A stretch of DNA of 64,000 nucleotides, from assembly GCA_016187515.1 (NCBI GenBank), contig JACPJN010000009.1, positions 132,891 to 196,890 on the forward strand, given 5' to 3'. A model generated the notes under the pieces. That model worked only from the letters and a program-made list of their open reading frames with translations, was not told the DNA's origin and made no database searches. This stretch comes from Candidatus Uhrbacteria bacterium (GTDB taxonomy: Bacteria > Patescibacteriota > Patescibacteriia > GWA2-47-26). Shown piece after piece: positions 3,524 through 51,434 of this stretch (its first letter is position 1; the number at the start of each line of letters is the position of its first letter). The translations under genes and the position numbers were made by a program.

Positions 3524-5872
3524 TCACAAGCGCAGCCGACGCAACAGTTGGGCGTTAAAGGCCACGATAACCGTGGAAAGCGACATCAATATTGCGGCAA
3601 AGGCCGGCGCCAGAATAATGCCGAGTGGCAGAAACGCGCCCGCGGCCGCCGGAATCGCAAAGGCGTTATATCCGGTTGCCCAAATTAAATTTTCCACCAT
3701 TTTCCGGTAAGTCGCCCGCGCGAGTTTAATAATCCGCACAATATCGCGCGGGTCGCTTTTGATTAGCACAATGCCCGCGGATTCGATGGCCACATCAGTG
3801 CCCGCGCCTATCGCGATTCCCACATCCGCCGCGGTAAGCGCCGGCGCGTCATTAATGCCGTCCCCGACCATCGCCACCCGCATCCCGCGCTTTTGCAGCT
3901 CCTGAACTTTCTCCACTTTTTGCTCCGGCAACACTTGCGCAAAATATTCATCAATTCCAAGCTCCTTTGCCACCCACTCCGCTACCGGTTTTGCGTCGCC
4001 GGTTATCATTGCCACTTTCACTCCCATATCATGAAGCACGTGCACTGCCGCGCGCGACTCTTCGCGAATAATATCGGCTACTCCGAATGCCGCGACAGTT
4101 TTATCATCAGCAATGAGATATATCACAGTTTTACCTTGTGCCTGTAGTACAGTAATGTCTTTTGACAAAAGTTCCATACTTGGAACTATGGAACTTTTTT
4201 CTGGAGACGCGGAAAGTAAATTTTCTCCTCCCACCCGCACCATTTTACCATTTACAAAACCCTCTACTCCACGTCCTGGCAATGCTTTTACATCCGCCGC
4301 TTTCGGTATTGTCAAGCCGCGCTCTTGCGCGGCCTTAACAATCGCTTTGGCAATCGGATGCTCGGACTCGCGATCCACCGCCGCCGCCAGCGCCAACAAT
4401 TCATTCTGCGCGGACTGTGAACTGTGAACTGATGACTGTGAACTCACTAGTATATCAGTGACACCGTATTCGCCACGGGTTAATGTTCCGGTTTTATCAA
4501 AAAGCACTATGTCAATCTTTCGCGCCAACTCCAGCGCCAGTTTCTCGCGCACCAGCAGCCCACTGCGTGCCGAAAGCGTAGTGGAAATTGAAGCGACGAG
4601 CGGCACGGCCAATCCCAGCGCGTGCGGACAGGCAATGACGAGCACGGCCACCACACGGGTCAGCGCTACCGCGATTCCGGCATCAAGCGCTAACCATGCC
4701 ACGACTGTAACTGCGCCCACCGTAACCGCGATAATTGTCAACACCAGCGCGGCTTTGTCCGCCAGCGCTTGCACGCGGCTGCGCGAGGCCTGGGCCTGGG
4801 CCACGAGCCGCATAATACCCGCGAGCGCGGTTTGCTCGCCGACTTTGGCCACGCGCACTTTAAGCGCGCCTTCGCCATTGATTGTCCCGGCAATCACCGG
4901 ACTGCCCGGTTTTTTGTCAACCGGTTTTGACTCGCCGGTAATCATGGATTCATTCACGCTGGAAACACCCTCAACAATTTCTCCGTCCGCCGGCACCTTG
5001 GTACCCGGCCGCACAAGAACAATATCACCAACACGTAATTCTGAAACCGGTACGATCTCAATACCTTCATTCATAACCCCCCTATCCCCCCTTATCTTAA
5101 GGGGGGTATTTGTTGTGTCTCCCTCCCTTAAGGTAAGGGAGGGCGGGGGTGGGTTATGCATTGCAATCCGCTCCGCCGTATCCGGTAAAAGCTTTGCCAA
5201 CTCCCGCAGCGCGCCCGAAGCATGTCCCACTGCCGCCATTTCAATCCAATGGCCCAAAAGCATGATCGTAATCAGCGTGGCAATTTCCCAAAACAGCGGC
5301 TCGCCAATTGGCCAAAACACCGTGAGCACGCTATACGAATACGCCACCGTTATAGCCAGCGCGATAAGCGTCATCATCCCGGGCAAACGATGCTTCAGTT
5401 CCGCAATCGCGCCCCGGATAAACACCCAACCGCCGTAGAAAAAAATCATACTCGCCAACGCGAGCGTCAAATACATGTGTCCTGGAAATTCCGGAAAGTG
5501 CACGCGGAACAACTTCTGTACCACGTCAGCGTACGCCAAAACCGGCAAGGTCAGCGCCAAACACACCCAAAACCGTTGCTTGAACATATTCACACTATGC
5601 CCCGCATGTCCCGACGCTTCGGTCGGGATCCCGACTTTACGTCGGGACTTGTCCACCAATTTGTCATTTCGAGGGAGCGCGGCAACCGAGAAATCTCTAC
5701 CGCCTTGCATACCACGGTGTAGAGATTCCTCACTACGTTCGGAATGACGAATTGGTTGCGGCCGATGATGGCTACAATAATAATGCATCACCCCTTGCGC
5801 GTCCTTTTCCGCATACTCGGCCACCATCCCGCATAATTCACATTTTTGTCCTTTAGGAATTTCGTGTTTCAT
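3524..5872 (-). CDS. copB: Copper-translocating P1B-type ATPase, CopB-like (CPH motif, His-rich N-terminus)
   Basis: DKTGTLT phosphorylation motif; CPH in the TM6 segment [11 protein letters not shown]; [10 protein letters not shown] hinge; N-terminal CxxC (CELCGM). Carries three in-frame palindromic inserts. Confidence 0.9.
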
Positions 5873-7100
5873 AATCTCTTAAGAGTTTAGCCACTCCCAG
5901 CGCGGTTCCATCGTCTGTGATTTGCCGGCGCACGTTGACTCCCGATACCTTCGCTTGTATGGAAACCATGCGGACATCACGCGTAATACCGCCGTCAATC
6001 ACCAGCGTACGCGGACGAATTGGCAGCTTTTTTAAATATCCATCCACATCTTTGGCAATATACGTGAGCGCCCTATCCAATTTATTGACATCATGTAAGA
6101 CCTTGTCTATTGCGGACCCGCTTCCTTCAATTTTTGCCTCCAGCGCGAATTGTGGACGCCGCGCGCCGGGCATAAGGGTGGTAAAAAACGGCTGCCTCAA
6201 CACATACTTCGACCCTAGTGATTGCACCAAAAACGTTCCTGTGCCATAAGTGACTTTGGTAGTACCTGGACTAACCCCTACTCCATACATACTGGCTTGC
6301 TGATCGCCGCATACCGCACGCACCGGCAAACGTGCGCCAACCACCTCATGGCGCAAAACACCGAATTTTGACTGTGATGGGCGCACTTCCGGCAGTATCG
6401 CGCGCGGCACACCAAATATCTCGAGCAACTCATCATCCCACTTTAAAGTACGGATATTATACAAAAGCGTGCGCGAAGCATTAGTCCAGTCAGTCAAATG
6501 CGGCCGGCCTTCAAGCAGATTCCATAAGATCCAAGTGTCCACGGTGCCGAAAAATAGTTCACCACCCCTAACCCCTCCTCGGCGAGGAGGGGAAACGATT
6601 CGCTTTCCTCCCCTGCCCGAGGGTAGGATTAAGGAGGGGTGGGAGCGATTGCTAACCACATTCCTTAAAATCCACCCCACCTTTGTCGCGGAAAAATACG
6701 GATCAATAGCCAGTCCGGTTTTACCGCGCACCTCGTCGCTAAGAGACGGACGCCGTCTCTTAGCGACGGCACACTCTTTCGCGGTCCTTTTATCTTCCCA
6801 AACAATCGCGGGATAAATCGGTTTTCCGGTTTTGCGATTCCACACGATTGCGGTTTCTCGCTGATTGGTAAGACCGAAGGCGCGCAGTGATTTTAGCGGA
6901 ACTCGGCTTGCCCGCACTGCAGTGCGCAGCACTTGTTTGCTGACTGCCAGGAGCTCGGAGGGCGATTGCTCAACGAATCCCGGCTTTGGATGCGTTTTTC
7001 TAATACGCGCATACGCGCGTCCCACAATTTCAATACTCTGCGAAAAAACCAAGGCCTTAATTCCGGTTGTACCTACGTCAAGCACCAAATAATATCTCAT
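5853..7100 (-). CDS. FGGY-family carbohydrate kinase (glycerol kinase-like) with in-frame GC-rich insert
   Basis: N-terminal YYLVLDVGTTGIKALVF, then TNQRETAIVWN and GTVDTWILWNL, all typical of GlpK/FGGY. The insert encodes SGRGGKRIVSPPRRGGVRGG. Confidence 0.7.
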   Translation of the reverse strand: MRYYLVLDVGTTGIKALVFSQSIEIVGRAYARIRKTHPKPGFVEQSPSELLAVSKQVLRTAVRASRVPLKSLRAFGLTNQRETAIVWNRKTGKPIYPAIVWEDKRTAKECAVAKRRRPSLSDEVRGKTGLAIDPYFSATKVGWILRNVVSNRSHPSLILPSGRGGKRIVSPPRRGGVRGGELFFGTVDTWILWNLLEGRPHLTDWTNASRTLLYNIRTLKWDDELLEIFGVPRAILPEVRPSQSKFGVLRHEVVGARLPVRAVCGDQQASMYGVGVSPGTTKVTYGTGTFLVQSLGSKYVLRQPFFTTLMPGARRPQFALEAKIEGSGSAIDKVLHDVNKLDRALTYIAKDVDGYLKKLPIRPRTLVIDGGITRDVRMVSIQAKVSGVNVRRQITDDGTALGVAKLLRDYETRNS

Positions 7101-9788: not shown

Positions 9789-10061
9789 TTATTTGTTATG
9801 CAGTTCAAATACCGCCAAAAGCTCCTTAATCGCTTTTTCTTCACTTTTCGCGTGCTTCATCTGGCGCGTTACATGGCGACGCAGGTGTTGCTCCAATAAA
9901 AGCACATTCATACTTTGCAAGGATTTCTGAATGGAAAGCGAATGACGGAGCAAGTCAATGCAATAGGTTTCGCTTTCAATCGCCCGCGTCAGTCCCCGCA
10001 TCTGCCCTTCCAAAATCTTTGCCCGATGCACCGCCCGTTTTTTCAGTTTCTGATCAATCAC
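9789..10061 (-). CDS. csoR: CsoR/RcnR-family metal-sensing transcriptional repressor
   Basis: ILEGQMRGLTRAIE...YCIDLL matches the CsoR family; about 90 aa; apparent GTG start. Confidence 0.75.
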   Translation of the reverse strand: MIDQKLKKRAVHRAKILEGQMRGLTRAIESETYCIDLLRHSLSIQKSLQSMNVLLLEQHLRRHVTRQMKHAKSEEKAIKELLAVFELHNK

Positions 10062-10062
10062 A

Positions 10063-10209
10063 ATTAGGAATTAGGTGAATTAGGTGAATTAGGTGAATTA
10101 GGTGAATTAGGTGAATTAGGTGAATTAGGTGAATTTGTCATTCCCCGCCCGTATCACAATCTCAATCAATCCAATTTTAGGAATTAGGTGAATTAGGTGA
10201 ATTAGAAAT
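10063..10209. repeat. Tandem 9-nt repeat (gaattaggt) x about 7, then a second block of about 2.5 units
   Basis: Direct read; lies immediately upstream of the csoR start. Confidence 0.9.
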
Positions 10210-10262
10210 TCTCAAATACCCCCCTCCCCTATTACCAATTCTATCACGCCGGTTATCCACAG

Positions 10263-12951: not shown

Positions 12952-13593
12952 CTATTCAAACACAATCCGAATTACATGATCCTTTGCCTCCGGTGTGTAC
13001 TGACCCACGTATTCCCGGAACTCCATATTTGCCTCACCGTTGACAAACATCTTCACCTGTCCAGGTTTTCCCGGCGTACACTCATCGCCATTTTTCTTAT
13101 CCATAATCCGATCGCGATCAAAGGAAATCCGATGCTTATCAAAGAAACGACCGAGTGTAATATCTTCTTTTTGAAGAATGCGCCCCTCAATGTGCCAGGT
13201 GTTATCGCCATGATGGTGATAAAGAGGAATGCCTACCATCTGCCCGCTTTTTGATCCAGGCAAATCGCGCTTCTCACCACATACGTCAATATCAATCTTG
13301 GCATGCCAATGCACCGGTTTATCCGTATAGGTCGTCGCGGCCGGAGTCGGGCCATTCGACGAGGTTGGCTTTGCGCTATAAATCACGGCGCCCACCACAC
13401 CGATACCCAACACTAAACTAATGACATGCCAGGCGTGAATCCGCCGCACTTTCGGCGCGCGCTCGCGCGCTTGTTCTGTTTTTTTAAGTAAACGTCGCTG
13501 TCGTCGCGTCATTGGTTGTTGATCCATATTTATTAGGCATTGTTGATTACAATTTGACTTCGATAATATCGCCGTCCTTAAATACATAGTCAA
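12952..13593 (-). CDS. Hypothetical membrane-anchored protein with His-rich segment (LYHHHGDNTWH)
   Basis: ORF only. Confidence 0.35.
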   Translation of the reverse strand: MTMYLRTAILSKSNCNQQCLINMDQQPMTRRQRRLLKKTEQARERAPKVRRIHAWHVISLVLGIGVVGAVIYSAKPTSSNGPTPAATTYTDKPVHWHAKIDIDVCGEKRDLPGSKSGQMVGIPLYHHHGDNTWHIEGRILQKEDITLGRFFDKHRISFDRDRIMDKKNGDECTPGKPGQVKMFVNGEANMEFREYVGQYTPEAKDHVIRIVFE

Positions 13594-14596
13594 GGCCTTG
13601 TACTGGTGATGCTCCGCCCACTACCACTTTAATGTGTTTCGGATCGTAAGTCAATCCCATACTGTCAAACCAAAACTTTAGCGGTACGCCAGTGGCATGC
13701 ATGTGCAAACGATTAAAGTTTGGTCCTTCCACATGGAGGAAACTTGAGCTTTTGCCATCATCATTGCCTCCCATACGATGCCCATACGGGGTAAGATCAA
13801 GTTCCTTGCCATTCTGAAGTACATGAAACTCTGCATGAATATGCGCTGACTGCAACAGCCCGATTTTTGCATCCGGATCCATGGTACACTCCATCATACC
13901 ACTTTCAATGCATTGATCAATGGCCATCCCGCACGCATCGCACGCTCCGTCGCCGTTTTTATCCATGAGTTCTTTGGCCTGGGCAATGTCGAAAAGGGTG
14001 AATTTCATCTGGCTCGTAACCCCCCTGTCCCCCCTTACCCTAAGTGGGGAATCGCTTTCGTCTCCTCCCCTTAAGATAAGGGGAGGTTGGGAGGGGTTAT
14101 GAGTCGCGAAAAACAGTCCCACCACCGCCACCACTCCCACCAACCCTCCCGCCACCTTCTTCCCCTGCTCCACAAAATCCACCACCCACCCGGTTTCCAC
14201 GCGTTTCACGATCAAATCTTTCAGATACCATCCAAGCACGCCCAGCACCAGCACTAATCCCACTGTTCGCGCGCCGGCAACCCACTCGCCGGCAAATGGC
14301 AATCCCGCCAGTAAAAGTCCGGCATTTCCAAACACGCCGCGTGTGGTAATGCAGCGCATCCTCATCCCCGCACGAATAAAAAGCAGCACACCAAATAATA
14401 CCACTGCCGCGATCCACAATGGCCACTGAAAACGATTTAAAAACAAAAGCGGCATGCCTTGGAGCGCAATGCCAAAAGTGGCTACGAGCGCGATAAGCGA
14501 AGTGCAGACATTATGACAAATCTGCCATGAACCTAAAATTGAGGCACAACCCGAGATTTTACTTCCGCGAGAGAACCAATTTGTTGAAATCTTCAT
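13547..14596 (-). CDS. Hypothetical membrane protein with in-frame palindromic insert (SPLRVRGDRGVT) and Cys-rich C-terminal domain
   Basis: Start trimmed to MKISTNWF at 14596; the track ORF extends upstream across a palindromic element and the trxB 3' end. Confidence 0.4.
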   Translation of the reverse strand: MKISTNWFSRGSKISGCASILGSWQICHNVCTSLIALVATFGIALQGMPLLFLNRFQWPLWIAAVVLFGVLLFIRAGMRMRCITTRGVFGNAGLLLAGLPFAGEWVAGARTVGLVLVLGVLGWYLKDLIVKRVETGWVVDFVEQGKKVAGGLVGVVAVVGLFFATHNPSQPPLILRGGDESDSPLRVRGDRGVTSQMKFTLFDIAQAKELMDKNGDGACDACGMAIDQCIESGMMECTMDPDAKIGLLQSAHIHAEFHVLQNGKELDLTPYGHRMGGNDDGKSSSFLHVEGPNFNRLHMHATGVPLKFWFDSMGLTYDPKHIKVVVGGASPVQGLDYVFKDGDIIEVKL

Positions 14597-14666
14597 AGCA
14601 ATATAGCGACTTGCGCAAAAAGTTCCATACTTGTGCTCCCAAGGCGCATCAGCCCACGGCTGAGAA

Positions 14667-15692
14667 CTATGGAACTTTTTTCTTATTTCTTGGGGGTATA
14701 GATTTAGGCGCGATAATCGGCAACGCATGCACCTCGCAGGCCATTCCACCGTGAACTCCCAGATCTTGATACGCCGAGGTGGCCGCCATCGCGCCTTGCG
14801 CGGCCGCAATAATATCCTGACGGAATGGCCCGGCGCCGTCGGTAATATCTCCTGCCGCGAATATGCCATCCACATTGGTTTTCATAAATTTATCCACATG
14901 GATATATCCTTTCTCGTCTAATTCCACCCCAAGTTTTTTTGCCATCTCATTGTTTGGCAACGCACCGATCTGCACGAATAAACCGCCTGCCTTGAGAACA
15001 TCCGACTCTTTATACGGCTTAGAAAGCCGCACACCTTCAAATTTGTCCGTGCCTAAAATTTCTTTTATCGCGGTGTTGTACAAAATTTCCGCCTTTCCGG
15101 TCTTTACGAGATTGGTCTCAAACCGATCCCAATTCACCGGCTCTGCGGTAATTTTGCCACCACGCACAATGAAATAAATCTTTGTCACGTATTCACCTGC
15201 CAGATTTGCGCCTTTCACGGAAGAATCGCCGCCGCCAACAATAATAATCTCTTTGCCTTTGTAAAGCGGCGCATCACAAGTCGTACAATACGAAATTCCG
15301 CGGCCGGTCAGTTCTTTTTCCTTGGGTAATCCCAGCCGCCGATGCCGCGCGCCCAGCGCGAAACAAATCGTCCGCGATAAAAGATGCGTGCCGTCCGTAA
15401 GTAGGAGATCAAAACAATGCTTTTGTCGAAGTACATCAATGACTTCTCCATCGCGCAGCTCCACACCGGTGGAGACCGCGTGATCTTCCATCTTTTGAAT
15501 AAGCTCATAGCCATCAATGCTCTTGAACCCCGGATAATTTTCAACTGTGGCCGCAATCGCGGTCTCCCCTCCGGGATCCTTGCCGCGCACCACCACGGTT
15601 TTCATCTTATATCGCTCAGCATAAATCCCGGCCGAAAGTCCGGCCGCCCCGCCGCCGATGATTGCGAAATCATACAATTTATCATCCGCCAT
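14667..15692 (-). CDS. trxB: Thioredoxin-disulfide reductase
   Basis: FAD motif DFAIIGGGAAGLSAG; redox CTTCD; NADPH motif IIIVGGGDS. Confidence 0.9.
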   Translation of the reverse strand: MADDKLYDFAIIGGGAAGLSAGIYAERYKMKTVVVRGKDPGGETAIAATVENYPGFKSIDGYELIQKMEDHAVSTGVELRDGEVIDVLRQKHCFDLLLTDGTHLLSRTICFALGARHRRLGLPKEKELTGRGISYCTTCDAPLYKGKEIIIVGGGDSSVKGANLAGEYVTKIYFIVRGGKITAEPVNWDRFETNLVKTGKAEILYNTAIKEILGTDKFEGVRLSKPYKESDVLKAGGLFVQIGALPNNEMAKKLGVELDEKGYIHVDKFMKTNVDGIFAAGDITDGAGPFRQDIIAAAQGAMAATSAYQDLGVHGGMACEVHALPIIAPKSIPPRNKKKVP

Positions 15693-18768: not shown

Positions 18769-19632
18769 CTACAGCCTTGGTTGCGGAAGAAATTGATTGA
18801 GATTCGCCTGAAAATAACGGTCCACTCCCAGCCACAAGGCGATTGCCCAGATCACGAGAATAATTCCGCCAACTTGTCGAATACGCGCCGAGGCGCGCGC
18901 AAATCCCTTGATGCGCAGCGTAAGCGCCCGGCCGCCGTAGCCGATTAAGAGCATGGGCACAGCCGCGCCAAGGCCGTAGGTGAAAAATAGCAAGCCGCTT
19001 TGGAATACATTCTGTGTATTTGCGGCAAAGGTGAGAATCGCGCCAAGAATCGGACCGGCGCACGGGGTCCACACCACGCCAAGGGTTGACCCAATTCCAA
19101 ACCCGCCCCAGAAGCCGTTGCCCCCTCCCCTCGCCCCTCCCACAGGTGGAGGGGAAATGTGGGATTGTTTTCCTCCCCTGATGGGAGGAAAATTTTCAAT
19201 TGTTTCCTCCCCCCTTGTGGGGGAGGATGAAGGAGGGGGGTTGCAACACGATCCACGCGCACTGATTTTCCTCCACACAAATGTCCCCCTCACCACCATC
19301 CACTCCCACAGCGCCGGCACGGCCAACGCCACCCCGAATAAAAACAAGAGCACAATAGAGGCCACGCGCAGCGTGCCTTTGGAAATTCCCAGTACATCCA
19401 GAAAAATCGCAAACGCCGTGCCAAAAATGGTAAACGTCACCACGAGTCCAGCCACAATTCCAAGCGGCCGCCACTTACTTGTGCCCAAAGAACCGCCCAA
19501 AATCGCCGGAAGCACCGGCAAAAGGCAAGGCGCGGCAACGGTCAGCACCCCGGCGGCAAAAGAAAGAGGGAGAAGAGAAAACACAAAATGACAATTTCTA
19601 ATTGACCTAATTGCTCTAATTATTCTAAACAA
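18769..19632 (-). CDS. CcdA/DsbD-family transmembrane thiol-disulfide transporter carrying a ~46-aa in-frame GC-rich insert
   Basis: AAPCLLPVLP and VWTPCAGPILG match CcdA Cys motifs. Insert encodes CCNPPPSSSPTRGEE...GGARGGGNGFWGG. Confidence 0.65.
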   Translation of the reverse strand: MFRIIRAIRSIRNCHFVFSLLPLSFAAGVLTVAAPCLLPVLPAILGGSLGTSKWRPLGIVAGLVVTFTIFGTAFAIFLDVLGISKGTLRVASIVLLFLFGVALAVPALWEWMVVRGTFVWRKISARGSCCNPPPSSSPTRGEETIENFPPIRGGKQSHISPPPVGGARGGGNGFWGGFGIGSTLGVVWTPCAGPILGAILTFAANTQNVFQSGLLFFTYGLGAAVPMLLIGYGGRALTLRIKGFARASARIRQVGGIILVIWAIALWLGVDRYFQANLNQFLPQPRL

Positions 19633-19750
19633 ATCTCAATTCCCAATAACCAATTTTGGGATTTTGCGCCTCAGGCGCATCCGCCTTGGGCGTGAGGTGC
19701 TTGGACATTTCTTAGGTCAATTAGGATAATTAGGTTAATTAGGTTAATTT
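19601..19750. repeat. AT-rich degenerate repeats (ctaattg / aattagg units, inverted arrangement)
   Basis: Direct read; promoter region of the ccdA-like gene. Confidence 0.7.
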
Positions 19751-20274
19751 TACAACACCTGCTGCACTTTCTGTCTCAACTCTTCTTCGGAGTGATCTCC
19801 GTAGAACCGATCCACGGGGTTTCCGCTTTTATCAAGCAACACATAACTATGCTGATAGTTGATGCGATACTGCCGCATGAGCGGCTGATTATCATCCACA
19901 TTTACCCGCACGCCCATCACGGCCAGATTATCCTGCCGGGCGCGATTAAAAAACGCTTCATTAATCGGCTCTTGCCCCCGGCAGGTTCCGCACCAGTTCG
20001 CATAAAAGTAGAGAAGCGTGGCGTTACCGCTCGCCAGCGCTGCACTCAATACTTCCGGCGTGTACTCTTTATAATTCTCGGTCGCGGTAAACGGAATTTT
20101 TGGCCCGCCCAGCGACGGCTCCCCTACCACGGTGGGTAAATCGGCCCCGGGTGTTCCCGCATAGGGCGCTGGAGGCGAATTTCCCCGAGAGGCCCAAACC
20201 ACTCCGCCAATCACAATCACCGCCAGCACTCCACCCACTGCATAAATTAGATTTTTTTGAATTTTAATCTCCAT
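19750..20274 (-). CDS. Thioredoxin-family thiol-disulfide oxidoreductase (TlpA/ResA-like, WCGTC)
   Basis: Signal anchor and the motif LYFYANWCGTCRGQEP. Confidence 0.7.
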   Translation of the reverse strand: MEIKIQKNLIYAVGGVLAVIVIGGVVWASRGNSPPAPYAGTPGADLPTVVGEPSLGGPKIPFTATENYKEYTPEVLSAALASGNATLLYFYANWCGTCRGQEPINEAFFNRARQDNLAVMGVRVNVDDNQPLMRQYRINYQHSYVLLDKSGNPVDRFYGDHSEEELRQKVQQVL

Positions 20275-23761: not shown

Positions 23762-24580
23762 TCAAGTGATGTCGTGCTGATGCTCTCCCCAAGAGCAAAA
23801 TCCGCACTGACTATGATGCGCCGGCGACTGATCGCTCTGCAGTAGTCGAGCGGCGTTTTCGAATAATTGCCGAGCGCGCTTTATACTGGTTTCCATCCGT
23901 TTGGGCGTTATTTCAAACTGCACGACTCCATTCTCGCGCACTTCAATCGGGTGATAATACACTAACCATCCCACTCCTTTGGTTTTATAACCATTCTCGT
24001 GCAAAAGCCACTCGTAAATATCTAACTGGTGCTGATAAAATCCGGAAGAATCCTCTTTTGGCGCGTACCCGCGGGTTTTGTAATCAAGCGGTACGTAATA
24101 GCGTGCCAAATTCCTTTTACTGCTCCCCTCTCCCCCGTGTGGGAGAGGGCTAGGGTGAGGGGATTCAGTAACCACCAAACAATCATCCAAAAGTCCGATG
24201 AGTTTCGTGTTGAGTTTTTTATCAAAATAGCGCAGACCACCAGTGCGCGCGCGCCAGCCATTCAGTAATTTCTGGTCAGCGAGCAGCTTCCCCTCCACTT
24301 TTCCGCGGATTTCCGGCGGTAACCCTTCCTTTGTTCCGCGAAACTTATCAAAGTAAGTTTTTATAACACCATCCATTCCTCCCGGAAGTGAAGGGAAAAT
24401 GGTTTTTGGACGATGCACGCCCATTTTAAGCTGTAACCAAAAACACCGCGGACATTCTTTAAAAAGCGAGAGCGTGGAGGCGGAAAGCTGGATAAATCGT
24501 CCAACCTCACGGTCATTGCGAGGAGCTTTCATTGCTCCGCCAAGCGGTAACCTTCCATTCGTTCCCATAGGGTTATTCAT
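23762..24580 (-). CDS. PD-(D/E)XK nuclease superfamily protein with Cys cluster (Cas4/RecB-like fold), carries in-frame palindromic insert
   Basis: N-terminal CPRCFW; LLDDCLVV...VPLDYK fits D...ExK; C-terminal CGFCSW. Insert encodes SPHPSPLPHGGEGSS. Confidence 0.5.
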   Translation of the reverse strand: MNNPMGTNGRLPLGGAMKAPRNDREVGRFIQLSASTLSLFKECPRCFWLQLKMGVHRPKTIFPSLPGGMDGVIKTYFDKFRGTKEGLPPEIRGKVEGKLLADQKLLNGWRARTGGLRYFDKKLNTKLIGLLDDCLVVTESPHPSPLPHGGEGSSKRNLARYYVPLDYKTRGYAPKEDSSGFYQHQLDIYEWLLHENGYKTKGVGWLVYYHPIEVRENGVVQFEITPKRMETSIKRARQLFENAARLLQSDQSPAHHSQCGFCSWGEHQHDIT

Positions 24581-24900: not shown

Positions 24901-26103
24901 CTATTGCGTAGGTATATACTGCCATGGATTAAGCCACTGGTCAAGTTCTGTTTTTGATTTCACATATCCACGAAGATCCAGACGCGTACCTTTATGAATT
25001 CCGAAGTGCAGGTGTTTGCGCTCGCCATCGGTCTCGCTCGTGCCACCCGCACCCAACACACCAATTATGTCACCGGGCGCAACATATTCACCTACGCCCT
25101 CTTTCTCCCCCTCCTGGAAAGGGCTCTCCCCTTTTTTCTCCCCCTCTCCCCTTGTGGGAGAGGGCGGGGGTGAGGGGTCAATTTTCAAATGCCCATACAC
25201 CACCGTAACCGCTTGATCACCGAGCACGCACTCCTGCACTACTACTCCCCCATAGCCATCCGCAGTGCGTTTTTCACGGATCGTCCCACCACAGAACGCG
25301 CGCACCTCCACGTCCCGATCCTTTTCTTCATCCGACACTTCAAAATCCACCGCAGTATGGTAACCGGAAAAACGTTCGGGCTGCACCGGAGAATTTTCTG
25401 GAGCAACTTTCAGTCCAAACGGCTTTTTGGTAACGCGCGCGGCGGCACGATCGATCGGCGCACTGAAACTCACGCGATCATTGTGGAATTGAATGCTTTG
25501 GAAAAATTTTTCAAACTCCTCTTTGGGGAGATCTGGATTGCGTCCGAACACGTAAAATACGCCCGGACTGTTCTTTGCGAAGCGCACATCCGTAACCTCA
25601 TGAGTTTCATTTCGCCAGGACGGCTGATATGGAAAATCCGCTACCCCTTTTTTCTTACGAATCGTGTAGCGCACGGCAGCGTGTCCCTGCGCTTCCAACT
25701 GTGCGCGCTCCAAAATATCCACGGTACGCAGGGTAAGAAAATCGCTCGCCTCAAAATAACGGATAAAAATCTGGGAAAGCTCCCGCGCGGGCATTGCCGC
25801 CTGCACCGGTCCATAGATATTCAGCGCTTCAATCTCCGGCACATATTCCGCCTGCCATGTACTCGGAAGCTCGGCGGAAAATCGAAACACCGGATTAAAC
25901 TCCGAAAAATCTACTCGAATTAAAGCAGACGATTGTTCTCGTGTCGCTTCTTCACTCTCCGGCAATTGTCCCAAATTCTCACGGCCGTGAGAATTTGGGA
26001 CAATTAGAACTGGGGTTGTAGTGGTTTTCCCTTGCTCTTGTGGCTGCCCCGCACAGCCAGACCCGAGCAAAATAATGACTATAAAAAGTAAAATAAATCT
26101 CAT
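24901..26103 (-). CDS. M23-family metallopeptidase lipoprotein with in-frame GC-rich insert
   Basis: Lipobox GSGCAG; M23 HxH (HLHFGIH). Insert encodes SPPPSPTRGEGEKKGESPFQEGEKEGVGE. Confidence 0.8.
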   Translation of the reverse strand: MRFILLFIVIILLGSGCAGQPQEQGKTTTTPVLIVPNSHGRENLGQLPESEEATREQSSALIRVDFSEFNPVFRFSAELPSTWQAEYVPEIEALNIYGPVQAAMPARELSQIFIRYFEASDFLTLRTVDILERAQLEAQGHAAVRYTIRKKKGVADFPYQPSWRNETHEVTDVRFAKNSPGVFYVFGRNPDLPKEEFEKFFQSIQFHNDRVSFSAPIDRAAARVTKKPFGLKVAPENSPVQPERFSGYHTAVDFEVSDEEKDRDVEVRAFCGGTIREKRTADGYGGVVVQECVLGDQAVTVVYGHLKIDPSPPPSPTRGEGEKKGESPFQEGEKEGVGEYVAPGDIIGVLGAGGTSETDGERKHLHFGIHKGTRLDLRGYVKSKTELDQWLNPWQYIPTQ

Positions 26104-26777
26104 AAAAATTTCTTTAGTTGTTTTTTATTAATCGCGCCCTCCCGCAGTATCTTGGGAGGACTCACCGTAAGATCCAGTACCGTGGAAGGCACTCGGACTG
26201 AAGTGGAACCGGCATCCAACACCAGGTCTACGCGCCTAAGCAAAGCCCGTGAAATATCGGAAACGCGCGTGGGTGGCTTCTCGCCGGAAAAATTTGCCGA
26301 GGGCGCGGCCAGCGGACCGGCCGCGCGAATGAGCGCCAGCGCCACCTTGTGCGCCGGCATCCGCACCGCCACTGTTTTCACCCTCCCCTTCGGTTGAATA
26401 AAAAGTTCCATACTTGGAACTATGGAACTATTTAATTTACCCAATACTAAATCCGGAAGAGCTTTTTGCGCATGAAACACAAGAGTCAAAGGTCCTGACC
26501 AAAATTTACGCACAAGCGCACGCGCCACGCTTGGCACATCACGCGCGAGTATATCAATCGTGGATTTTTTTGATATATGCACAATCAGCGGCTTTTTTTC
26601 CGGCCGCCCTTTTATTTTAAAAATCTTCCGCACCGCGCGGGCATTAAACGCATCCGCCCCCAGCCCATACACCGTCTCGGTCGGAAAAACCACCAACCCG
26701 CCGCGGCGAATAATTTCCGCCGCATGCGCAATCACCTTCGAATCCGGCCTTTGCGCCGATATTTTTACAATCTTCAT
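26100..26777 (-). CDS. tsaC: L-threonylcarbamoyladenylate synthase (YrdC/TsaC domain) with short in-frame palindromic insert
   Basis: VVFPTETVYGLGADAFNARAVRKIFKIKGRPEKKPLIVHI. Insert encodes [11 protein letters not shown]. Confidence 0.8.
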   Translation of the reverse strand: MKIVKISAQRPDSKVIAHAAEIIRRGGLVVFPTETVYGLGADAFNARAVRKIFKIKGRPEKKPLIVHISKKSTIDILARDVPSVARALVRKFWSGPLTLVFHAQKALPDLVLGKLNSSIVPSMELFIQPKGRVKTVAVRMPAHKVALALIRAAGPLAAPSANFSGEKPPTRVSDISRALLRRVDLVLDAGSTSVRVPSTVLDLTVSPPKILREGAINKKQLKKFL

Positions 26778-26779
26778 AT

Positions 26780-26900
26780 CAGTCCCCTCCCCTTAGATTA
26801 AGTGGGGTTGGGTGGGGTTACGCCTGACCGCTTGCCTGCTTGTCCGCCTCTGGCGGGCCTTTGGCACGGCCTCTGGAGGGAAACGGAGAACAGAACTTAT
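26780..26900. repeat. GC-rich mosaic palindromic element, intergenic
   Basis: cccctccccttagattaagtggggttgggtgggg plus gtccgcctctggcggg, shared with the 29290-29320 element. Confidence 0.7.
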
Positions 26901-28745: not shown

Positions 28746-29094
28746 TGATAATCCCGGCGATTACCTCGCCAACATTCTCACATACATCATTGTCGGTAAA
28801 TCGAAGCACGCGAATTCCTTGGGCTTCAATGAACTTCTGCCGTTGTGCATCCCGCCGCTTCGCTCCCTCCTGATAATGACTATCCCCATCCAGCTCGACG
28901 ACCAATTTTACCCTGGGACAATAAAAATCGACCACATGAGGGCCGATTCCTTGCTGCCGACGAAATTTATACCCTTCCACATTACTCCCTCGCAGATAGT
29001 ACCAGAGAATTTTCTCACTCCGTGTCATTCGACTACGAAGTTTTTGACGCGTGGATTTTTGTGCGTTCGGGTTAAACAATTTTACCATAACCAC
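28723..29094 (-). CDS. DUF559 (Vsr-like) endonuclease-domain protein
   Basis: GYKFRRQQGIGPHVVDFYCPRVKLVVELDGDSH...RDAQRQKFIEAQGIRVLRF matches the DUF559 pattern. Confidence 0.75.
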   Translation of the reverse strand: MVMVKLFNPNAQKSTRQKLRSRMTRSEKILWYYLRGSNVEGYKFRRQQGIGPHVVDFYCPRVKLVVELDGDSHYQEGAKRRDAQRQKFIEAQGIRVLRFTDNDVCENVGEVIAGIIKELSHHP

Positions 29095-29330
29095 CCCTTA
29101 ATCCCCTCCTTGGAAAGGAGGGGAAATCTTAACCACCCCTTAATCCCCTCCTTGGAAAGGAGGGGAAATCTTAACCACCCCTTAATCCCCTCCTTGGAAA
29201 GGAGGGGAAATCTTAACCGCCCCTTCTCCCACCCCCTCTAACTCCCCCTCGCCTGCCCGCCTCTGGAGGGGGCAGGGGGAGAAACCTCCTTGCCTGTCCG
29301 CCTCTGGCGGGGAAAGGAGGGGAAATCAAA
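29095..29330. repeat. Three tandem copies of a 42-bp hairpin unit (cttaaccaccccttaatcccctccttggaaaggaggggaaat), then a GC-rich palindromic segment
   Basis: Direct read. Confidence 0.85.
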
Positions 29331-35293: not shown

Positions 35294-36619
35294 CTATTGA
35301 GCCGGCGCTGGCACAGGCGCGGGCGCGGTTTCCCCAAAGGGATTGGCTCCCTCTGGTTGCGCCGGTTTTTCAAGCGCCTCGAATTTTTGCTGTAGCCGTT
35401 CAATGCGCTCCAAAACATTGCCCGGCACGGCGCGGCGCTTGCGTTCACTGTCAAAAATCAAATTAAACATTTTCTGTCCCAGCTCGCGCTGGATCGCTTC
35501 CATGGTCTCGCGCGCCACGCGGTATTCTCCGTCCCGTAAGGCCTCTTTAACCGGTATTAACAGATCATCCAGCTGCGTTTTAAGTTCCGGATCTTTAACG
35601 CGGCGAAGCGGCTCAATAAACCCGCGCATCATCTGCAGCGCACCGTTTACGTCGCCGGGCCAGCCGGGCTCATGAAACGCGTCCTGAAGAATACCGCGCG
35701 CATCCTCATACTCTCCCGCTTGATAAGCCGCTTTGGCTTCCGCGTATTTGGCGGCAAAATTCGCCATGATCGTATTGCACTCCTCCCGGCTAAACACCTT
35801 ATCCACCCATTTCTGTTTACAAAGATTCTTGGCGCGATTCAGGTCGCGCAAAACATTATTAAGCTCCTTCGGGAGTTCCACGGCCTGCCGAATCCGATTG
35901 ATCTCTTCCCAAAACTCTCCGGTATCTCCGCACTCTTCTCCCTCGAGTACGTCTTTCATGGCATCGTTATCCGTAGCCGCGTTTAATTGCGTCTGACACT
36001 GGGTTAGGCGTTCCTTAATCGCGTCCAGCTTAACCAGTTCATCTTGAGAACCTTTAAGGCGCACCAGTTGCTTGCGCACTTTCGCTGATTCCCGCAACTG
36101 ATCGCGCCACTCGCGCAGCCGGTCTTGTTTCCACCGCGCGGTATCTTGCCCCTCACGCTGCTCATGATCATCATCCTTCATCTCCGGCCTCGACTCGCCC
36201 GGACCCGCGTCCTTTAATTCTCCTTGCGGCGGATAATTACTGCATGGGCCGGGCATCTCCACTCCATTTACTCGACAGGTCTCCTTTACCGGCTCTTTCA
36301 CTTCCAAACCCGGCTGCGGGACCGGTGGCTGCCCTTCTACGGCGGGGGGCTGGGGTTGCACTGGCTGCGCGGGCTGTGTAAGTTCGGCGGACGGCGCTGG
36401 CGGCGTCACGGTTTGCCCTTGATCTTGGGCAATCAAATACCCGGGCTCCGGAAGCAGCTCGGATAAAATCGCCCCCTGCTGCTGCGCCGCGCTACCCAGC
36501 TGGATTGACCCGGAAAGCAGAAATAACGCGGTGGCGGCCAAAACGCTGCCCGCGATTTTAATCGTCTTTTCCTTTACGTCGCCACGATGATAGTGGCAAA
36601 AATAACAGAGATTGCGCAT
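35294..36619 (-). CDS. Secreted/anchored coiled-coil protein, hypothetical
   Basis: N-terminal TM, Pro/Gln-rich linker, long charged helical region. Confidence 0.45.
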   Translation of the reverse strand: MRNLCYFCHYHRGDVKEKTIKIAGSVLAATALFLLSGSIQLGSAAQQQGAILSELLPEPGYLIAQDQGQTVTPPAPSAELTQPAQPVQPQPPAVEGQPPVPQPGLEVKEPVKETCRVNGVEMPGPCSNYPPQGELKDAGPGESRPEMKDDDHEQREGQDTARWKQDRLREWRDQLRESAKVRKQLVRLKGSQDELVKLDAIKERLTQCQTQLNAATDNDAMKDVLEGEECGDTGEFWEEINRIRQAVELPKELNNVLRDLNRAKNLCKQKWVDKVFSREECNTIMANFAAKYAEAKAAYQAGEYEDARGILQDAFHEPGWPGDVNGALQMMRGFIEPLRRVKDPELKTQLDDLLIPVKEALRDGEYRVARETMEAIQRELGQKMFNLIFDSERKRRAVPGNVLERIERLQQKFEALEKPAQPEGANPFGETAPAPVPAPAQ

Positions 36620-36625
36620 ATAACT

Positions 36626-36686
36626 TAGAGTTTAGAGTTTAGAGTTTAGAGTTTAGAGTTTAGAGTTTAGAGTTTAGAGTTTAGAT
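36626..36686. repeat. Tandem 8-nt repeat (agagttta) x about 8
   Basis: Direct read; between the coiled-coil gene start and the GT4 gene end. Confidence 0.9.
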
Positions 36687-36687
36687 A

Positions 36688-37818
36688 TTATAGCACACCC
36701 TTGTCCACAAGCGAAGTGTATAACTTTTCGGTCTCCGCCACCACTTTATCCCAGTCAAAATACCGCTTAATAAAGCCCAAGGCCAGCTTCCCTTTCTCCC
36801 GCACAATTTCCGGGTGATTGATTAGTCCGACAATCTTTTCGGCCAGATCGCTGACGTTCCCCACTGCAAATGGCACTCCGGAATGGTCAATGGCTTCCAG
36901 ATTCTCCGGGATATTGGAAATCAAGACGCATTTTCCGAAACTCATGGCTTCCAAAATCGTCAGTGATAATCCTTCGGACTCGGAAGGATGCACATAAAAA
37001 TAGGCGTGCGCGTAAAGCTGCTTCAGCTCGTCTCCGGTTTGATAACCGGTAAAAATAATCCGGTGATCTGCGGCTGCCAACTGTTTCAGGTACGCGCTGT
37101 AATCCGCGGTAAAAGAAGGCGCCCCCACAATAACCAGCTTCATCTCGCCCTTGACTTCCTCCGGAACTTGTCGGTAGGCCTCGATCAGATAGTGAATTCC
37201 TTTATGTTTAATCAGACGCGCCACGGTGACCAAATAACCATTTTTCTGCAGTCCCCATTGTTTAAGCGCCGCGCTGGATTCCATTTTGTGAATTTCTACC
37301 GCGTTGGGAATATAATGAACATTTTTTTTGTATGCTTGCCGGCAATATCTCACAATTGAATGTGAGACGCCAATCGTGGTATGCGGAATATGCGTGGCAC
37401 ACCACTCTCCGATGCGCAGCACGAACCGCGCCCAAAACCCCCACTTGGCATGAAACCGATCAATGGAATGAAACGTCACTACGATTTTAGCGCGCGTAAA
37501 AAGCCGAGGAATCCAGGATAAGAGCGCCGGGCCGACACCGTGGAAATGGATGATGTCGTACCTAGAGCGTAGAGCATAGAGCGTAGAGCATAGCGTAGAG
37601 GAAATCGTGCCTAAGTGTTTGGTTGGAATTTCCGGCACGCGCGTGAGTTTCACGCCATTCCACATATCATCTTTGGTGGCCACATATCTTTTACGCACAA
37701 ATACCGTAACCTCATGCCCGCGCTTCGCCAAGCGCGTAGATAATTCCTCCACATGCCGCTCCACTCCCCCGTCCCGATAGAAAGGTATGGCCTTCTGTCC
37801 AATGAATGCTATTTTCAT
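36688..37818 (-). CDS. Family 4 glycosyltransferase (GT4)
   Basis: C-terminal EGLSLTILEAMSFGKCVLISN resembles the GT4 E-x7-E region; N-terminal Rossmann-like fold. Confidence 0.8.
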   Translation of the reverse strand: MKIAFIGQKAIPFYRDGGVERHVEELSTRLAKRGHEVTVFVRKRYVATKDDMWNGVKLTRVPEIPTKHLGTISSTLCSTLYALRSRYDIIHFHGVGPALLSWIPRLFTRAKIVVTFHSIDRFHAKWGFWARFVLRIGEWCATHIPHTTIGVSHSIVRYCRQAYKKNVHYIPNAVEIHKMESSAALKQWGLQKNGYLVTVARLIKHKGIHYLIEAYRQVPEEVKGEMKLVIVGAPSFTADYSAYLKQLAAADHRIIFTGYQTGDELKQLYAHAYFYVHPSESEGLSLTILEAMSFGKCVLISNIPENLEAIDHSGVPFAVGNVSDLAEKIVGLINHPEIVREKGKLALGFIKRYFDWDKVVAETEKLYTSLVDKGVL

Positions 37819-50978: not shown

Positions 50979-51346
50979 ATTAAGGAAGTGGTGCCCAACG
51001 CATTGGAGTCCGAGGTAGAAGGAGCAAGCGCGCTGGAGGTGAGCGTCAATTCAGCAGTGCCGCCAATGCCCAGAATCAAGTTGGTGGTAGCGTTGATGTC
51101 GGTGTCCCAAGTGTCGCCAATGCTGATGGCGGCGGAAGCCACGGTGCCAGTGCCGGCTTCGGTCAAGGTGCCAATGTCCAGACCCCGCACGGTCATGGCA
51201 TTGGTGGTCGAAGTGGCCGTAAACGCGGCAATGTTGGCAACCCTGAAAGTACTGGCGGTGGTCGCGGCAAAAGTGGGGTTCAGGTTCAGCAAGGTGGAGC
51301 CGTCTGCGCCTTCCGCCGTAATCAGGGTAATGTTGAGCGCGTCCAC
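50819..51346 (-). CDS. Middle fragment of the same surface-protein gene (lies within a ~503-bp tandem duplication)
   Basis: Shares DALNITLITAEGADGSTLLNLNPTFAATT and GTTSLMWGDLFLASGGV with the flanking fragments. Confidence 0.4.
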   Translation of the reverse strand: MDALNITLITAEGADGSTLLNLNPTFAATTASTFRVANIAAFTATSTTNAMTVRGLDIGTLTEAGTGTVASAAISIGDTWDTDINATTNLILGIGGTAELTLTSSALAPSTSDSNALGTTSLMWGDLFLASGGVRPLLTDKPLIWMAMRPRQLIWSRSARATPPPLPMWTRSTLP

Positions 51347-51434
51347 ATTGGCAGTGGCGGTGGTGTCGCCCGAGCCGATCGTGACCAGATCAGCTGTCGG
51401 GGTCGCATCGCCATCCAGATTAATGGTTTGTCCG

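What the first reader, a model, noticed from the sequence alone, without database searches (positions are those of the whole stretch)
4167..4200. Family C perfect palindrome AAAAGTTCCATACTTGGAACTATGGAACTTTT present three times, twice in-frame as SSIVPSMEL
The 30-bp palindrome occurs inside copB (4167-4200, peptide [14 protein letters not shown]) and inside tsaC (26401-26432, peptide [11 protein letters not shown]). A third copy (14617-14682) overlaps the trxB stop and C-terminal codons (KKVP*); in this copy the palindrome is split by a 29-bp insertion.

The same nine-residue peptide in two unrelated enzymes points to insertion rather than common ancestry. The palindrome is AT-rich and half-site symmetric, so it could also be the binding site of a dimeric regulator, or a target-site-specific mini-MITE.
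Basis: seen in the sequence. Interest (0 to 1): 0.75.

Follow-up and report, generated by a model that had tools for sequence, protein, structure and literature searches.

The report
Hairpin repeat paired with TrpR-like gene
A 32-base hairpin-forming repeat in a Candidatus Uhrbacteria genome is translated inside two enzymes, and in related genomes it brackets one small TrpR-type DNA-binding gene, so it is most likely that protein's binding site that has been copied around the genome.

Summary
The repeat has 12-bp inverted arms around an asymmetric 8-nt centre, so it is not a perfect palindrome. The third copy carries a 30-nt insert, not 29. That copy supplies the trxB stop codon and is not an in-frame insert.

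The genome is Candidatus Uhrbacteria (CPR). The TsaC copy lies in an 18-aa insert that basal orthologues lack. The insert is old: eight Uhrbacteria tsaC genes (63-79% nt identity) carry a perfect hairpin at the same site. Their stems differ only by mirrored, both-arm substitutions, with no G-T intermediates in the core.

A blind metagenome scan with the 26-mer led to the main new finding. In four independent lineages the hairpin flanks both sides of one ~200-aa TrpR/YerC-like gene. The upstream copy lies 20-22 nt before an extended -10 in three of them. The window's own contig encodes this protein, and it ends in the element-encoded ...KKVP*. A hypervariable dipeptide just before the recognition-helix motif TIARVN tracks the hairpin variant: QQ, QH and PT.

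Best reading: a cognate palindromic binding site that has been dispersed, including into disordered protein loops. How the copies spread is unknown. No transposase was seen.

The parts
4167..4198 (-). Family C copy 1: 12-bp arms and an 8-nt centre. It lies inside copB and is translated as [10 protein letters not shown](L).
   Evidence: As RNA it folds at -19.7 kcal/mol, z = -6.1. The peptide is absent from 26 CopB orthologues.
3524..5872 (-). Host gene copB (P1B-type Cu ATPase, 782 aa). Copy 1 lies in a length-variable loop of the nucleotide-binding domain.
26401..26432 (-). Family C copy 2, inside tsaC, translated as [11 protein letters not shown]. The 26-nt core is exact; the outer stem has one mismatch.
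   Evidence: Folds at -16.6 kcal/mol, z = -4.6.
26388..26438 (-). The roughly 17-18-codon TsaC insert (about residues 114-130) that contains copy 2 and its tail TTCAACCGAAG. Basal and outgroup orthologues lack it.
   Evidence: In the AlphaFold model, residues 108-131 have pLDDT below 50 and form a loop between two strands.
26100..26777 (-). Host gene tsaC (threonylcarbamoyl-AMP synthase, 225 aa; identical to MBI2552773.1, Candidatus Uhrbacteria).
14617..14680 (-). Family C copy 3. Both arms are intact and the loop is interrupted. It overlaps the last codons (KVP) and the TAG stop of the trxB ORF, and lies just upstream of the next gene's likely start (MKISTNW...).
14634..14663 (-). 30-nt insertion nested in the loop of copy 3. 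It has its own small hairpin, TCAGCC-GTG-GGCTGA. It is unique in the window and in all fetched loci.
14667..15692 (-). trxB ORF (341 aa). Homology to thioredoxin reductases ends near residue 310. The C-terminal tail runs into the element.

Best explanation
Family C is a lineage-specific, hairpin-forming palindromic repeat of Uhrbacteria. It has a conserved symmetric core of about 22-26 bp and stems of 12-21 bp. I propose it is the cognate DNA site of a ~200-aa two-domain protein: an N-terminal TrpR/YerC(HisR)-fold HTH domain and a C-terminal helical domain of unknown function.

Shown:
- The hairpin sits on both sides of that gene in four independent lineages.
- In three of them the upstream copy ends 20-22 nt before an extended -10 box.
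- The downstream copy abuts the stop codon in one lineage, overlaps it in another, and lies 40 to about 190 nt beyond it in the other two.
- The window's own contig encodes the protein.
- Extra copies lie at 3' ends of other genes and inside ORFs.
- Between lineages the hairpin changes only by mirrored substitutions in both arms.
- Those changes track a hypervariable dipeptide immediately before the conserved recognition-helix motif TIARVN.

Inferred:
- A dimer of the protein binds the two half-sites. At its own promoter this gives autoregulation.
- As the protein's specificity drifts, sites that stay in use change on both arms. This would explain why the copy inside tsaC keeps pace with each genome's own variant.
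- Copies survive inside genes because five of six reading frames are open and the encoded 10-18 residues sit in disordered or length-variable surface loops.

Not known:
- The mechanism that makes new copies.
- Whether the single-stranded hairpin (RNA or ssDNA) has a role of its own. The strand bias and the outer-stem complementarity suggest that it does.

For: 2. A fourth, more divergent lineage. L137-L139 (protein P0249, 61-64% identical) again has related hairpins on both sides. The upstream one has a perfect 21-bp stem and lies in a divergent intergenic region, where it cannot terminate any gene.

3. Link to this genome. P0245 (MBI2552660.1) lies on the same 202,379-bp contig as the window's TsaC (MBI2552773.1). 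It ends ...SKKVP, the element's frame-c signature. Four of 8 'QQ' proteins end in KVP, against 0 of 45 others.

4. Promoter geometry. TGGTATACT or TGGTATAAT lies 20-22 nt after the upstream copy in L119, L125 and L128.

5. Specificity covariation. In 'KVS-xx-TIARVN' the dipeptide xx takes 24 different values in 53 proteins, while the flanking residues are almost invariant. QQ goes with AGTTCCATAGT (window genome, L125, L128). QH goes with AGTGCCATAGT (L119). PT goes with ACTTTCATACT (L137).

6. Palindromy is the conserved property. On 18 copies, 12 of 17 stem pairs show changes on both sides, and no core pair shows a one-sided (G-U type) change. 85.6% of cells pair, against 72% in shuffles and 36-47% in slid controls. 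Eight tsaC orthologues carry perfect hairpins at one site with different stems.

7. The core is more conserved than the host gene. The 26-nt core is identical in L121 and L130, whose tsaC genes are 70.7% identical outside the insert.

8. Family precedent. YerC/HisR and TrpR bind 20-bp palindromes with lineage-specific consensus sequences (PMC9413887).
Against: - No binding experiment exists. The link rests on association and covariation, with only three protein/hairpin classes.
- Perfect stems extend to 15-21 bp, well beyond a 20-22-bp operator. The outer stem differs between copies within one genome yet stays complementary within each copy. A sequence-specific dimer does not explain this.
- About 13 of 14 independent copies are in the sense orientation relative to the neighbouring gene. 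A symmetric dsDNA-binding dimer would not produce that bias.
- None of the window's three copies lies in a recognisable promoter, and two are inside ORFs.
- Most flanking copies also lie just after an upstream gene's stop codon, so a terminator role could explain part of the pattern.
- One genome (RIFCSPLOWO2_01_FULL_47_24) has the QQ gene with flanking hairpins but an empty tsaC site.
Confidence: 0.45

Rival explanations
1. A selfish, non-autonomous mobile hairpin of the REP/REPIN, PATE or MITE kind. The ~750-bp unit 'hairpin - TrpR-like gene - hairpin' would be the autonomous or master element, organised like IS200 or a RAYT flanked by REPs. The solo hairpins would be its copies, inserted through a single-strand intermediate. 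In-frame copies would be parasitic insertions, tolerated as in Rickettsia RPEs.
For: - Presence/absence polymorphism: the tsaC site is empty in L132 and in basal orthologues, and CopB orthologues lack the peptide.
- Identical 26-mers occur in unrelated flanks on contigs of 46-51% G+C.
- There is a nested insertion in copy 3.
- The unit is 740-1010 bp and its gene neighbourhood differs in every lineage. In L119 it lies in a 4-kb island missing from the syntenic window.
- The strand bias fits mobilisation through ssDNA.
- Two L119 copies share 22 nt of extra 5' flank, which points to copying together with flanking sequence.
Against: - The partner protein shows only a TrpR-fold HTH domain plus a helical domain. 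No HUH, DDE, Ser- or Tyr-recombinase fold or motif was detected.
- There is no target-site duplication and no conserved target.
- Density is low: 3 copies per 64 kb.
- The tsaC copy is retained at one site across 63-79% nt divergence. That is not typical of turnover by transposition.
- No copies were found in viral contigs or phage records.
Confidence: 0.25
2. Primarily an RNA-level element: a transcription terminator or a 3'-end stabilising hairpin placed after genes. The long stem pairs the A-tract with the U-tract. An alternative 7-bp hairpin, AGUUCCA-AGUA-UGGAACU, leaves U5 free. The copies inside ORFs would be accidents.
For: - Several intergenic copies start within 70 nt of a stop codon or contain it: trxB in the window; tsaC and the TrpR-like gene in L119; L124; L125; L128.
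- The orientation is almost always sense.
- The outer stem covaries copy by copy.
- Folding energies are strong, -17 to -29 kcal/mol, z = -4.6 to -6.1.
- The consensus scan flags the short hairpin plus T-run on the sense strand in L125, and the full hairpin on the antisense strand in L119, as terminator-like.
Against: - There are no G-U pairs among 18 copies in the core. Selection on RNA normally tolerates them.
- The L137 upstream copy lies between divergent genes.
- One L128 copy is antisense.
- A terminator inside tsaC, conserved across eight lineages, would be harmful.
- This reading does not explain the exclusive pairing with one gene family or the covariation with its recognition helix.
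- The element matches no Rfam family.
Confidence: 0.15
3. A site for a site-specific recombinase, either lox/FRT/dif-like (12-13-bp inverted arms around an 8-bp asymmetric spacer) or attC-like (a folded single-strand site at cassette ends). It would serve gene-cassette exchange.
For: - The window variant has exactly the 12+8+12 architecture.
- In L119, copies separate consecutive small genes within an island downstream of tsaC, a position that varies between lineages.
Against: - Other variants have stems that continue to a 4-nt loop (L129, L133, L134, L137), so the 8-bp spacer is not conserved.
- Three directly oriented copies 10-12 kb apart would delete essential genes if they recombined.
- No integrase or recombinase gene lies next to any copy.
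- A copy inside tsaC makes no sense as a cassette boundary.
Confidence: 0.05
4. Chance similarity, or an ancestral conserved peptide motif shared by the enzymes.
For: None beyond the short length of the peptide.
Against: - The match is at the DNA level: 26-32 nt identical in three places in 64 kb, and on six unrelated metagenome contigs.
- The peptide is absent from CopB orthologues and from distant TsaC and Sua5 proteins, including solved structures.
Confidence: 0.01

Closest known systems
REP / REPIN elements with their RAYT (REP-associated tyrosine transposase)
   Same: - Short hairpin-forming palindromes dispersed mainly at 3' ends of genes.
- Lineage-specific sequence variants.
- One particular single gene flanked on both sides by the cognate hairpin, with hairpin and protein co-diverging.
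   Different: - The flanked gene encodes a TrpR-fold HTH protein, not an HUH/Y1 nuclease.
- There is no GTAG or CGTC tag.
- The element is AT-rich.
- Density is low (about 1 per 20 kb here).
- Copies occur inside ORFs and are translated.
Rickettsia palindromic elements (RPE; Ogata et al. 2000)
   Same: Palindromic repeats inserted in frame into unrelated housekeeping genes. They are translated and tolerated because they land in surface or loop regions.
   Different: - RPEs are about 100-150 bp, whereas this element has a 32-bp core and is about 54 nt in full.
- There is no sequence relationship and the phylum differs.
- RPEs have no known cognate protein gene.
TrpR / HisR(YerC) operators
   Same: - A symmetric core of about 20-22 bp with lineage-specific consensus.
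- A TrpR-family dimeric HTH protein as the likely binder.
- A site at the regulator's own promoter.
   Different: - The protein has an extra ~100-aa C-terminal domain.
- The palindromes extend to 12-21-bp perfect stems.
- Copies are dispersed to 3' ends of genes and into coding sequence, and they show strand bias.
- No amino-acid biosynthesis regulon is evident.
CIRCE / HrcA
   Same: An inverted repeat of 9 or more bp per arm around a spacer of about 9 nt. It acts as an operator for a dedicated repressor and, as an RNA hairpin, also affects mRNA stability. This is a precedent for a dual DNA and RNA role.
   Different: CIRCE has a different sequence and a different protein family. It is confined to heat-shock promoters and is not found inside ORFs.
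Small dispersed repeats (SDR) of cyanobacteria (Elhai et al. 2008, recalled from memory) and bacterial MITEs (Correia, ERIC, BOX)
   Same: Very small dispersed repeats, some of them hairpins, with nested insertions and occasional intragenic copies.
   Different: - No target-site duplication was seen here, and there are no terminal inverted repeats other than the hairpin itself.
- A specific partner gene has been identified.
- There is no sequence similarity.

Membership tests
REP/REPIN-RAYT | Conserved GTAG or CGTC tetranucleotide at one end of the palindrome (PMC3733652) | tested here: not met
   None of the 18 aligned copies has GTAG or CGTC at either stem end.
REP/REPIN-RAYT | The cognate gene flanked by the repeats is a Y1 HUH transposase (RAYT) | tested here: not met
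   The flanked gene carries PF01371 Trp_repressor only. The fold search finds TrpR-like proteins and generic HTH domains, and no HUH fold. Whether a RAYT exists elsewhere in the genome was not established.
REP/REPIN-RAYT | Extragenic location and high copy number (100 or more per genome) | tested here: not met
   Two of the three window copies are inside ORFs. Density is 3 per 64 kb. A whole-genome count was not possible.
Rickettsia palindromic elements | In-frame insertion into unrelated ORFs at structurally tolerant positions | tested here: met
   In-frame copies occur in CopB, TsaC, a ThiI-like ORF and Alr. The TsaC insert is a low-confidence loop in the model. The CopB site varies in length among orthologues.
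Rickettsia palindromic elements | Element length of about 100-150 bp and RPE sequence families | tested here: not met
   The core is 32 bp and the full insert about 54 nt.
MITE | Terminal inverted repeats derived from an IS, plus a target-site duplication | tested here: not met
   No direct repeat flanks any of about 16 copies, and no target is shared. Comparing the filled site (L121) with the empty site (L132) shows no duplication.
TrpR/HisR-type operator | A palindrome of about 20 bp with symmetric conserved positions | tested here: met
   The invariant columns T12, C15, A16, T20 / A25, T29, G30, A33 are mirror-symmetric over 22 bp. The family property comes from PMC9413887.
TrpR/HisR-type operator | Site located at the promoters of regulated genes, including the regulator's own | tested here: inconclusive
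   This is met for the regulator gene in L119, L125 and L128, where the site lies 20-22 nt before an extended -10. In L137 the site is more distal. The tool's -35-dependent scan did not call these promoters. None of the three window copies lies in an evident promoter.
TrpR/HisR-type operator | Specific binding by the TrpR-family dimer | not testable with these tools
   This needs EMSA or footprinting. Only covariation of the dipeptide with the stem variant is available.
Intrinsic terminator | G+C-rich stem followed directly by a U-tract, at the 3' end of a transcription unit | tested here: inconclusive
   The stem has 3 G-C pairs of 12, and the T-run is paired with the A-run. The window scan did not flag it. 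The alternative short hairpin plus T5 was flagged in L125, and the L119 copies were flagged on the antisense strand.
lox/FRT/dif-type recombination site | Two inverted recombinase-binding arms around a conserved 6-8-bp asymmetric spacer, with a cognate recombinase | tested here: not met
   The spacer is not conserved: other variants have 4-nt loops. No recombinase gene lies near any copy.
DNA uptake sequences (DUS/USS) | Density of about one per kb and strong genome-wide over-representation | tested here: not met
   Three copies in 64 kb.

The most novel reading that the evidence does not exclude
CPR bacteria may carry a previously undescribed two-part system analogous to REP-RAYT but built on a TrpR-fold protein. 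It would be a ~750-bp 'hairpin - gene - hairpin' unit. Its hairpin would be propagated to new sites, including in frame into essential genes. Hairpin and protein specificity would co-evolve, through a hypervariable dipeptide in the recognition helix matched by mirrored stem substitutions. All copies in a genome, even one fixed inside tsaC for a long evolutionary time, would be kept in step with that genome's own variant.
Probability: 0.25. Interest if true: 0.85.

Novelty: new variant of a known kind. Interest (0 to 1): 0.65.

Why it matters
If the pairing holds, it gives three things.

1. A testable protein-DNA recognition code in an uncultured phylum: a dipeptide in the recognition helix matched to base pairs in the stem.
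2. An example of a binding-site or hairpin family invading coding sequence and persisting there across deep divergence. This bears on how CPR proteins acquire their many unexplained inserts.
3. A possible non-HUH counterpart to the REP-RAYT relationship.

There is also a practical point. These repeats explain odd 'conserved' peptides ([19 protein letters not shown], ...KVP*) and C-terminal extensions in CPR MAG annotations.

Tried and rejected
- The genome-contig scan used too loose a pattern (9-nt arms with a variable gap).
- Looking up the window's own TsaC and P0245 by exact sequence failed both times with 'not on record'. The rest of the 202-kb contig could therefore not be read.
It was dropped.
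- I tried to screen all window ORFs for a transposase using the alignment-id shortcut. The shortcut lists only the 25 most frequent families. No transposase appeared, but the screen is not exhaustive.
- Viral contigs gave 0 hits. Phage records gave only two chance-level matches, E = 0.7. Rfam found only five tRNAs in the window.
- The 30-nt nested insert is not a repeat in the window or in any fetched locus.
- Uptake-sequence, parS and integron attC readings were considered and set aside on grounds of density, architecture and missing partner genes.
- Literature searches found nothing on such repeats in CPR or Uhrbacteria.
Full report
**What is in the window**

The 32-mer AAAAGTTCCATA-CTTGGAAC-TATGGAACTTTT is at 4167-4198. 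It recurs at 26401-26432 with one mismatch in the outer arm. At 14617-14680 both arms are intact but the loop is 38 nt instead of 8, so the insert is 30 nt, at 14634-14663.

The sequence has 12-bp perfect inverted arms around an asymmetric 8-nt centre. It is not a perfect palindrome. On the sense strand the centre GTTCCAAG repeats the left arm GTTCCATA. This creates an alternative 7-bp hairpin, AGTTCCA-AGTA-TGGAACT, followed by T5. As RNA the copies fold at -17 to -20 kcal/mol (z = -4.6 to -6.1).

All three copies are in the sense orientation relative to minus-strand genes. Two are translated: [14 protein letters not shown] in CopB and [11 protein letters not shown] in TsaC. For the third, TrxB homology ends at about residue 310 of 341. 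The ORF then runs into the element, whose third sense frame gives ..KKVP and a TAG stop. Five of the six frames of the element are open (read directly from the sequence).

**Organism**

The TsaC protein is 100% identical to MBI2552773.1 of a Candidatus Uhrbacteria MAG, on a 202,379-bp contig. The genome carries other small palindromic repeats inside genes as well. One is a clean 30-aa insert in CopB. Another is a 22-aa insert in the M23 peptidase relative to its L119 orthologue.

**Is it an insertion?**

*TsaC.* Solved Sua5/YrdC structures and basal or outgroup orthologues lack about 18 residues at this point. The AlphaFold model places residues 108-131 in a loop with pLDDT below 50, between two strands.

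The insert is not recent. Many Uhrbacteria TsaC proteins have an insert at the same position with related peptides: SAIVPSMAL, TSKLPSLEV, SAFMLHSM and TSILSSMLV. I fetched the DNA of nine orthologues.

- Every insert at the shared site contains a perfect hairpin:
  - window: AGTTCCATAGT/TCCA
  - L121, L119, L130: AGTGCCATAGT/TCC(C/T)
  - L129, L135: ACTTCCAAACT/TCCA
  - L133: GTGCTTTCATGCT/ACAT
  - L134: ACTAGCATACT/ATCC
- L136 has a hairpin from a different repeat family, a little upstream.
- L132 has an empty site.

These tsaC genes are only 63-79% identical at the nucleotide level. Yet the 26-nt core is identical in L121 and L130. A neighbour-joining tree without bootstrap support places insert-bearing orthologues mostly together and basal ones without the insert.

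*CopB.* None of 26 orthologues has the peptide. The best orthologue found is 68% identical and the net length difference is about 5 aa. The site lies in a length-variable loop of the nucleotide-binding domain.

**Palindromy is what is conserved**

I aligned 18 copies without gaps and counted pairs.

| Measure | Result |
|---|---|
| Stem pairs with changes on both sides | 12 of 17 |
| Core pairs with a one-sided (G-U type) change | 0 |
| Cells that pair | 85.6% |
| Same, in shuffles | 72.0 ± 1.5% (0 of 500 shuffles reach the observed value) |
| Same, in slid controls | 36-47% |

Nine columns are invariant. Eight of them form four mirror-symmetric pairs spanning 22 bp. The outer stem differs between copies within one genome but stays complementary within each copy.

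**Genome-specific variants**

The window has three copies of the T:A variant. L119 has four copies of the G:C variant within 2 kb: one inside tsaC and three just after genes, with 15-bp stems. The only site orthologous between the two genomes, the one in tsaC, carries each genome's own variant.

**The key lead**

A scan of metagenome contigs with the exact 26-mer found six contigs with unrelated flanks.

- In L125 and L126 (the same sequence) and in L128, two copies bracket one ~200-aa gene.
- In L119, two of the copies bracket a gene of the same size.
- The three proteins are homologous.
- A more divergent homologue, P0249 on L137-L139, is again bracketed by related hairpins. Upstream is TTTAGACAATACTTTCATACT-CTAT-AGTATGAAAGTATTGTCTAAA, with a perfect 21-bp stem, between divergent genes. 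Downstream is an imperfect copy.

*The protein.*
- Trp_repressor domain (PF01371) at residues 19-101, followed by a helical C-terminal domain with no family match.
- About 90 clusters at 50% identity match the profile at E ≤ 1e-30, and most of the best hits span both domains.

*Link to this genome.* One homologue, P0245 (MBI2552660.1), lies on the window's own contig, 113 accession numbers away from TsaC. It ends ...SKKVP, the element's stop-codon signature. Four of 8 'QQ' proteins end in KVP, against 0 of 45 others.

**Geometry and specificity**

In L119, L125 and L128 the upstream copy ends 20-22 nt before TGGTATACT or TGGTATAAT. The tool's -35-dependent scan does not call these promoters.

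In the motif KVS-xx-TIARVN the two residues xx take 24 values in 53 proteins, within an otherwise nearly invariant HTH. This motif aligns with the sTisRvN segment of YerC-like structures. From my own knowledge of the TrpR structure, it corresponds to recognition helix E.

| Dipeptide | Hairpin variant | Where seen |
|---|---|---|
| QQ | AGTTCCATAGT | window genome, L125, L128 |
| QH | AGTGCCATAGT | L119 |
| PT | ACTTTCATACT | L137 |

YerC is HisR. TrpR-family regulators bind 20-bp palindromes with lineage-specific consensus sequences (PMC9413887).

**Interpretation**

The best-supported reading (confidence 0.45) is that family C is the cognate palindromic site of this TrpR-like protein. It would be autoregulatory at the protein's own gene, and it has been dispersed to 3' ends of genes and into tolerant loops of ORFs. 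Mirrored substitutions would follow changes in protein specificity.

This reading explains several things together:
- perfect Watson-Crick symmetry without wobble pairs;
- genome-specific variants;
- a core more conserved than its host gene;
- the exclusive pairing with one gene family.

It does not explain three things: the 15-21-bp perfect stems, the copy-specific complementarity of the outer stem, or the sense-strand bias (about 13 of 14 independent copies). These point to an additional single-strand role, as a terminator, an RNA 3' end or an ssDNA hairpin, or to a copying mechanism that uses a fold-back.

Rivals:
- A REP/RAYT-like or IS200-like mobile unit (0.25).
- A pure RNA terminator or stabiliser (0.15).
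- A recombination site (0.05).

No transposase, target-site duplication or viral link was found. The transposase screen was not exhaustive, and the rest of the genome could not be read.

**Comparison with known systems**

- It works most like a TrpR/HisR operator or CIRCE that has become a dispersed repeat.
- Its genomic layout resembles REP-RAYT.
- Its behaviour inside genes resembles Rickettsia RPEs.
- It fails the defining tests for REP (no GTAG or CGTC tag, no RAYT, not extragenic), RPE (wrong size), MITE (no target-site duplication), lox/FRT sites (spacer not conserved, no recombinase) and uptake sequences (density too low).
- I found no description of such repeats in CPR.

I therefore rate it a new variant of a known kind. 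There is a 0.25 chance that it represents a distinct hairpin-plus-TrpR-fold system.

Noticed in passing
window 5118-5151, 14061-14094, 24124-24167, 25139-25182, 26783-26816, 49540-49634: A second, G+C-rich palindromic repeat family (TCCCCCTCTCCC..GGGAGAGGG..GGGGTGAGGGG). It is translated inside genes. It gives a clean 30-aa insert, [29 protein letters not shown], in CopB. It gives a 22-aa insert in the M23 peptidase relative to its L119 orthologue. It gives 'PPLILRGGDESDSPLRVRGDRGV' in gene 13547-14599.
   Followed up: partly
window about 5660-5750 (copB N-terminus): The CopB N-terminal segment [30 protein letters not shown] is absent from all 26 orthologues. It looks like a third repeat-derived insert.
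   Followed up: no
window 25964-26005, 6734-6768, 19168-19192: Single-copy long perfect palindromes (19-, 16- and 10-bp stems) lie inside ORFs. Hairpins in coding sequence are therefore a general trait of this genome, not only of family C.
   Followed up: no
window 10059-10212, 19709-19758, 36611-36700, 29088-29225: Short tandem arrays: GAATTAGGT about 8 times, at two loci 9.5 kb apart; TTAGAGT heptamers; and a 42-nt unit three times.
   Followed up: no
window 50754-50943 / 51257-51446 and 50944-51031 / 51485-51572: A 190-nt direct repeat (92% identity) followed by an 88-nt repeat (78%), spaced about 500 bp apart. This suggests an internal duplication within or between genes.
   Followed up: no
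L119 10715-14740, compared with window 26100-26103: In the window, tsaC and the M23 peptidase gene overlap. In L119 they are separated by a 4-kb island: the TrpR-like gene, AAA_33, an AAA_21/OLD-TOPRIM nuclease (defence-like) and PNPOx. Family C hairpins lie between several of these genes. The position downstream of tsaC holds different genes in every lineage examined.
   Followed up: partly
L136 about 880-930 and L119 49-79: Another hairpin family (AAGGACTGTCCTT...) is inserted in TsaC a few codons upstream of the family C site in L136. It is also present in L119 near position 49-79. TsaC's loop region seems to be a recurrent landing place for hairpins.
   Followed up: no
L137 1928-5458: The ribonucleotide reductase gene carries an intein with a LAGLIDADG endonuclease domain.
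   Followed up: no
L128 1480-1513: This copy has AAATAG...CTATTT, the same A-to-T change seen in one arm of the window's tsaC copy. Here the change is compensated on the other arm. This suggests that arms are corrected against each other.
   Followed up: no
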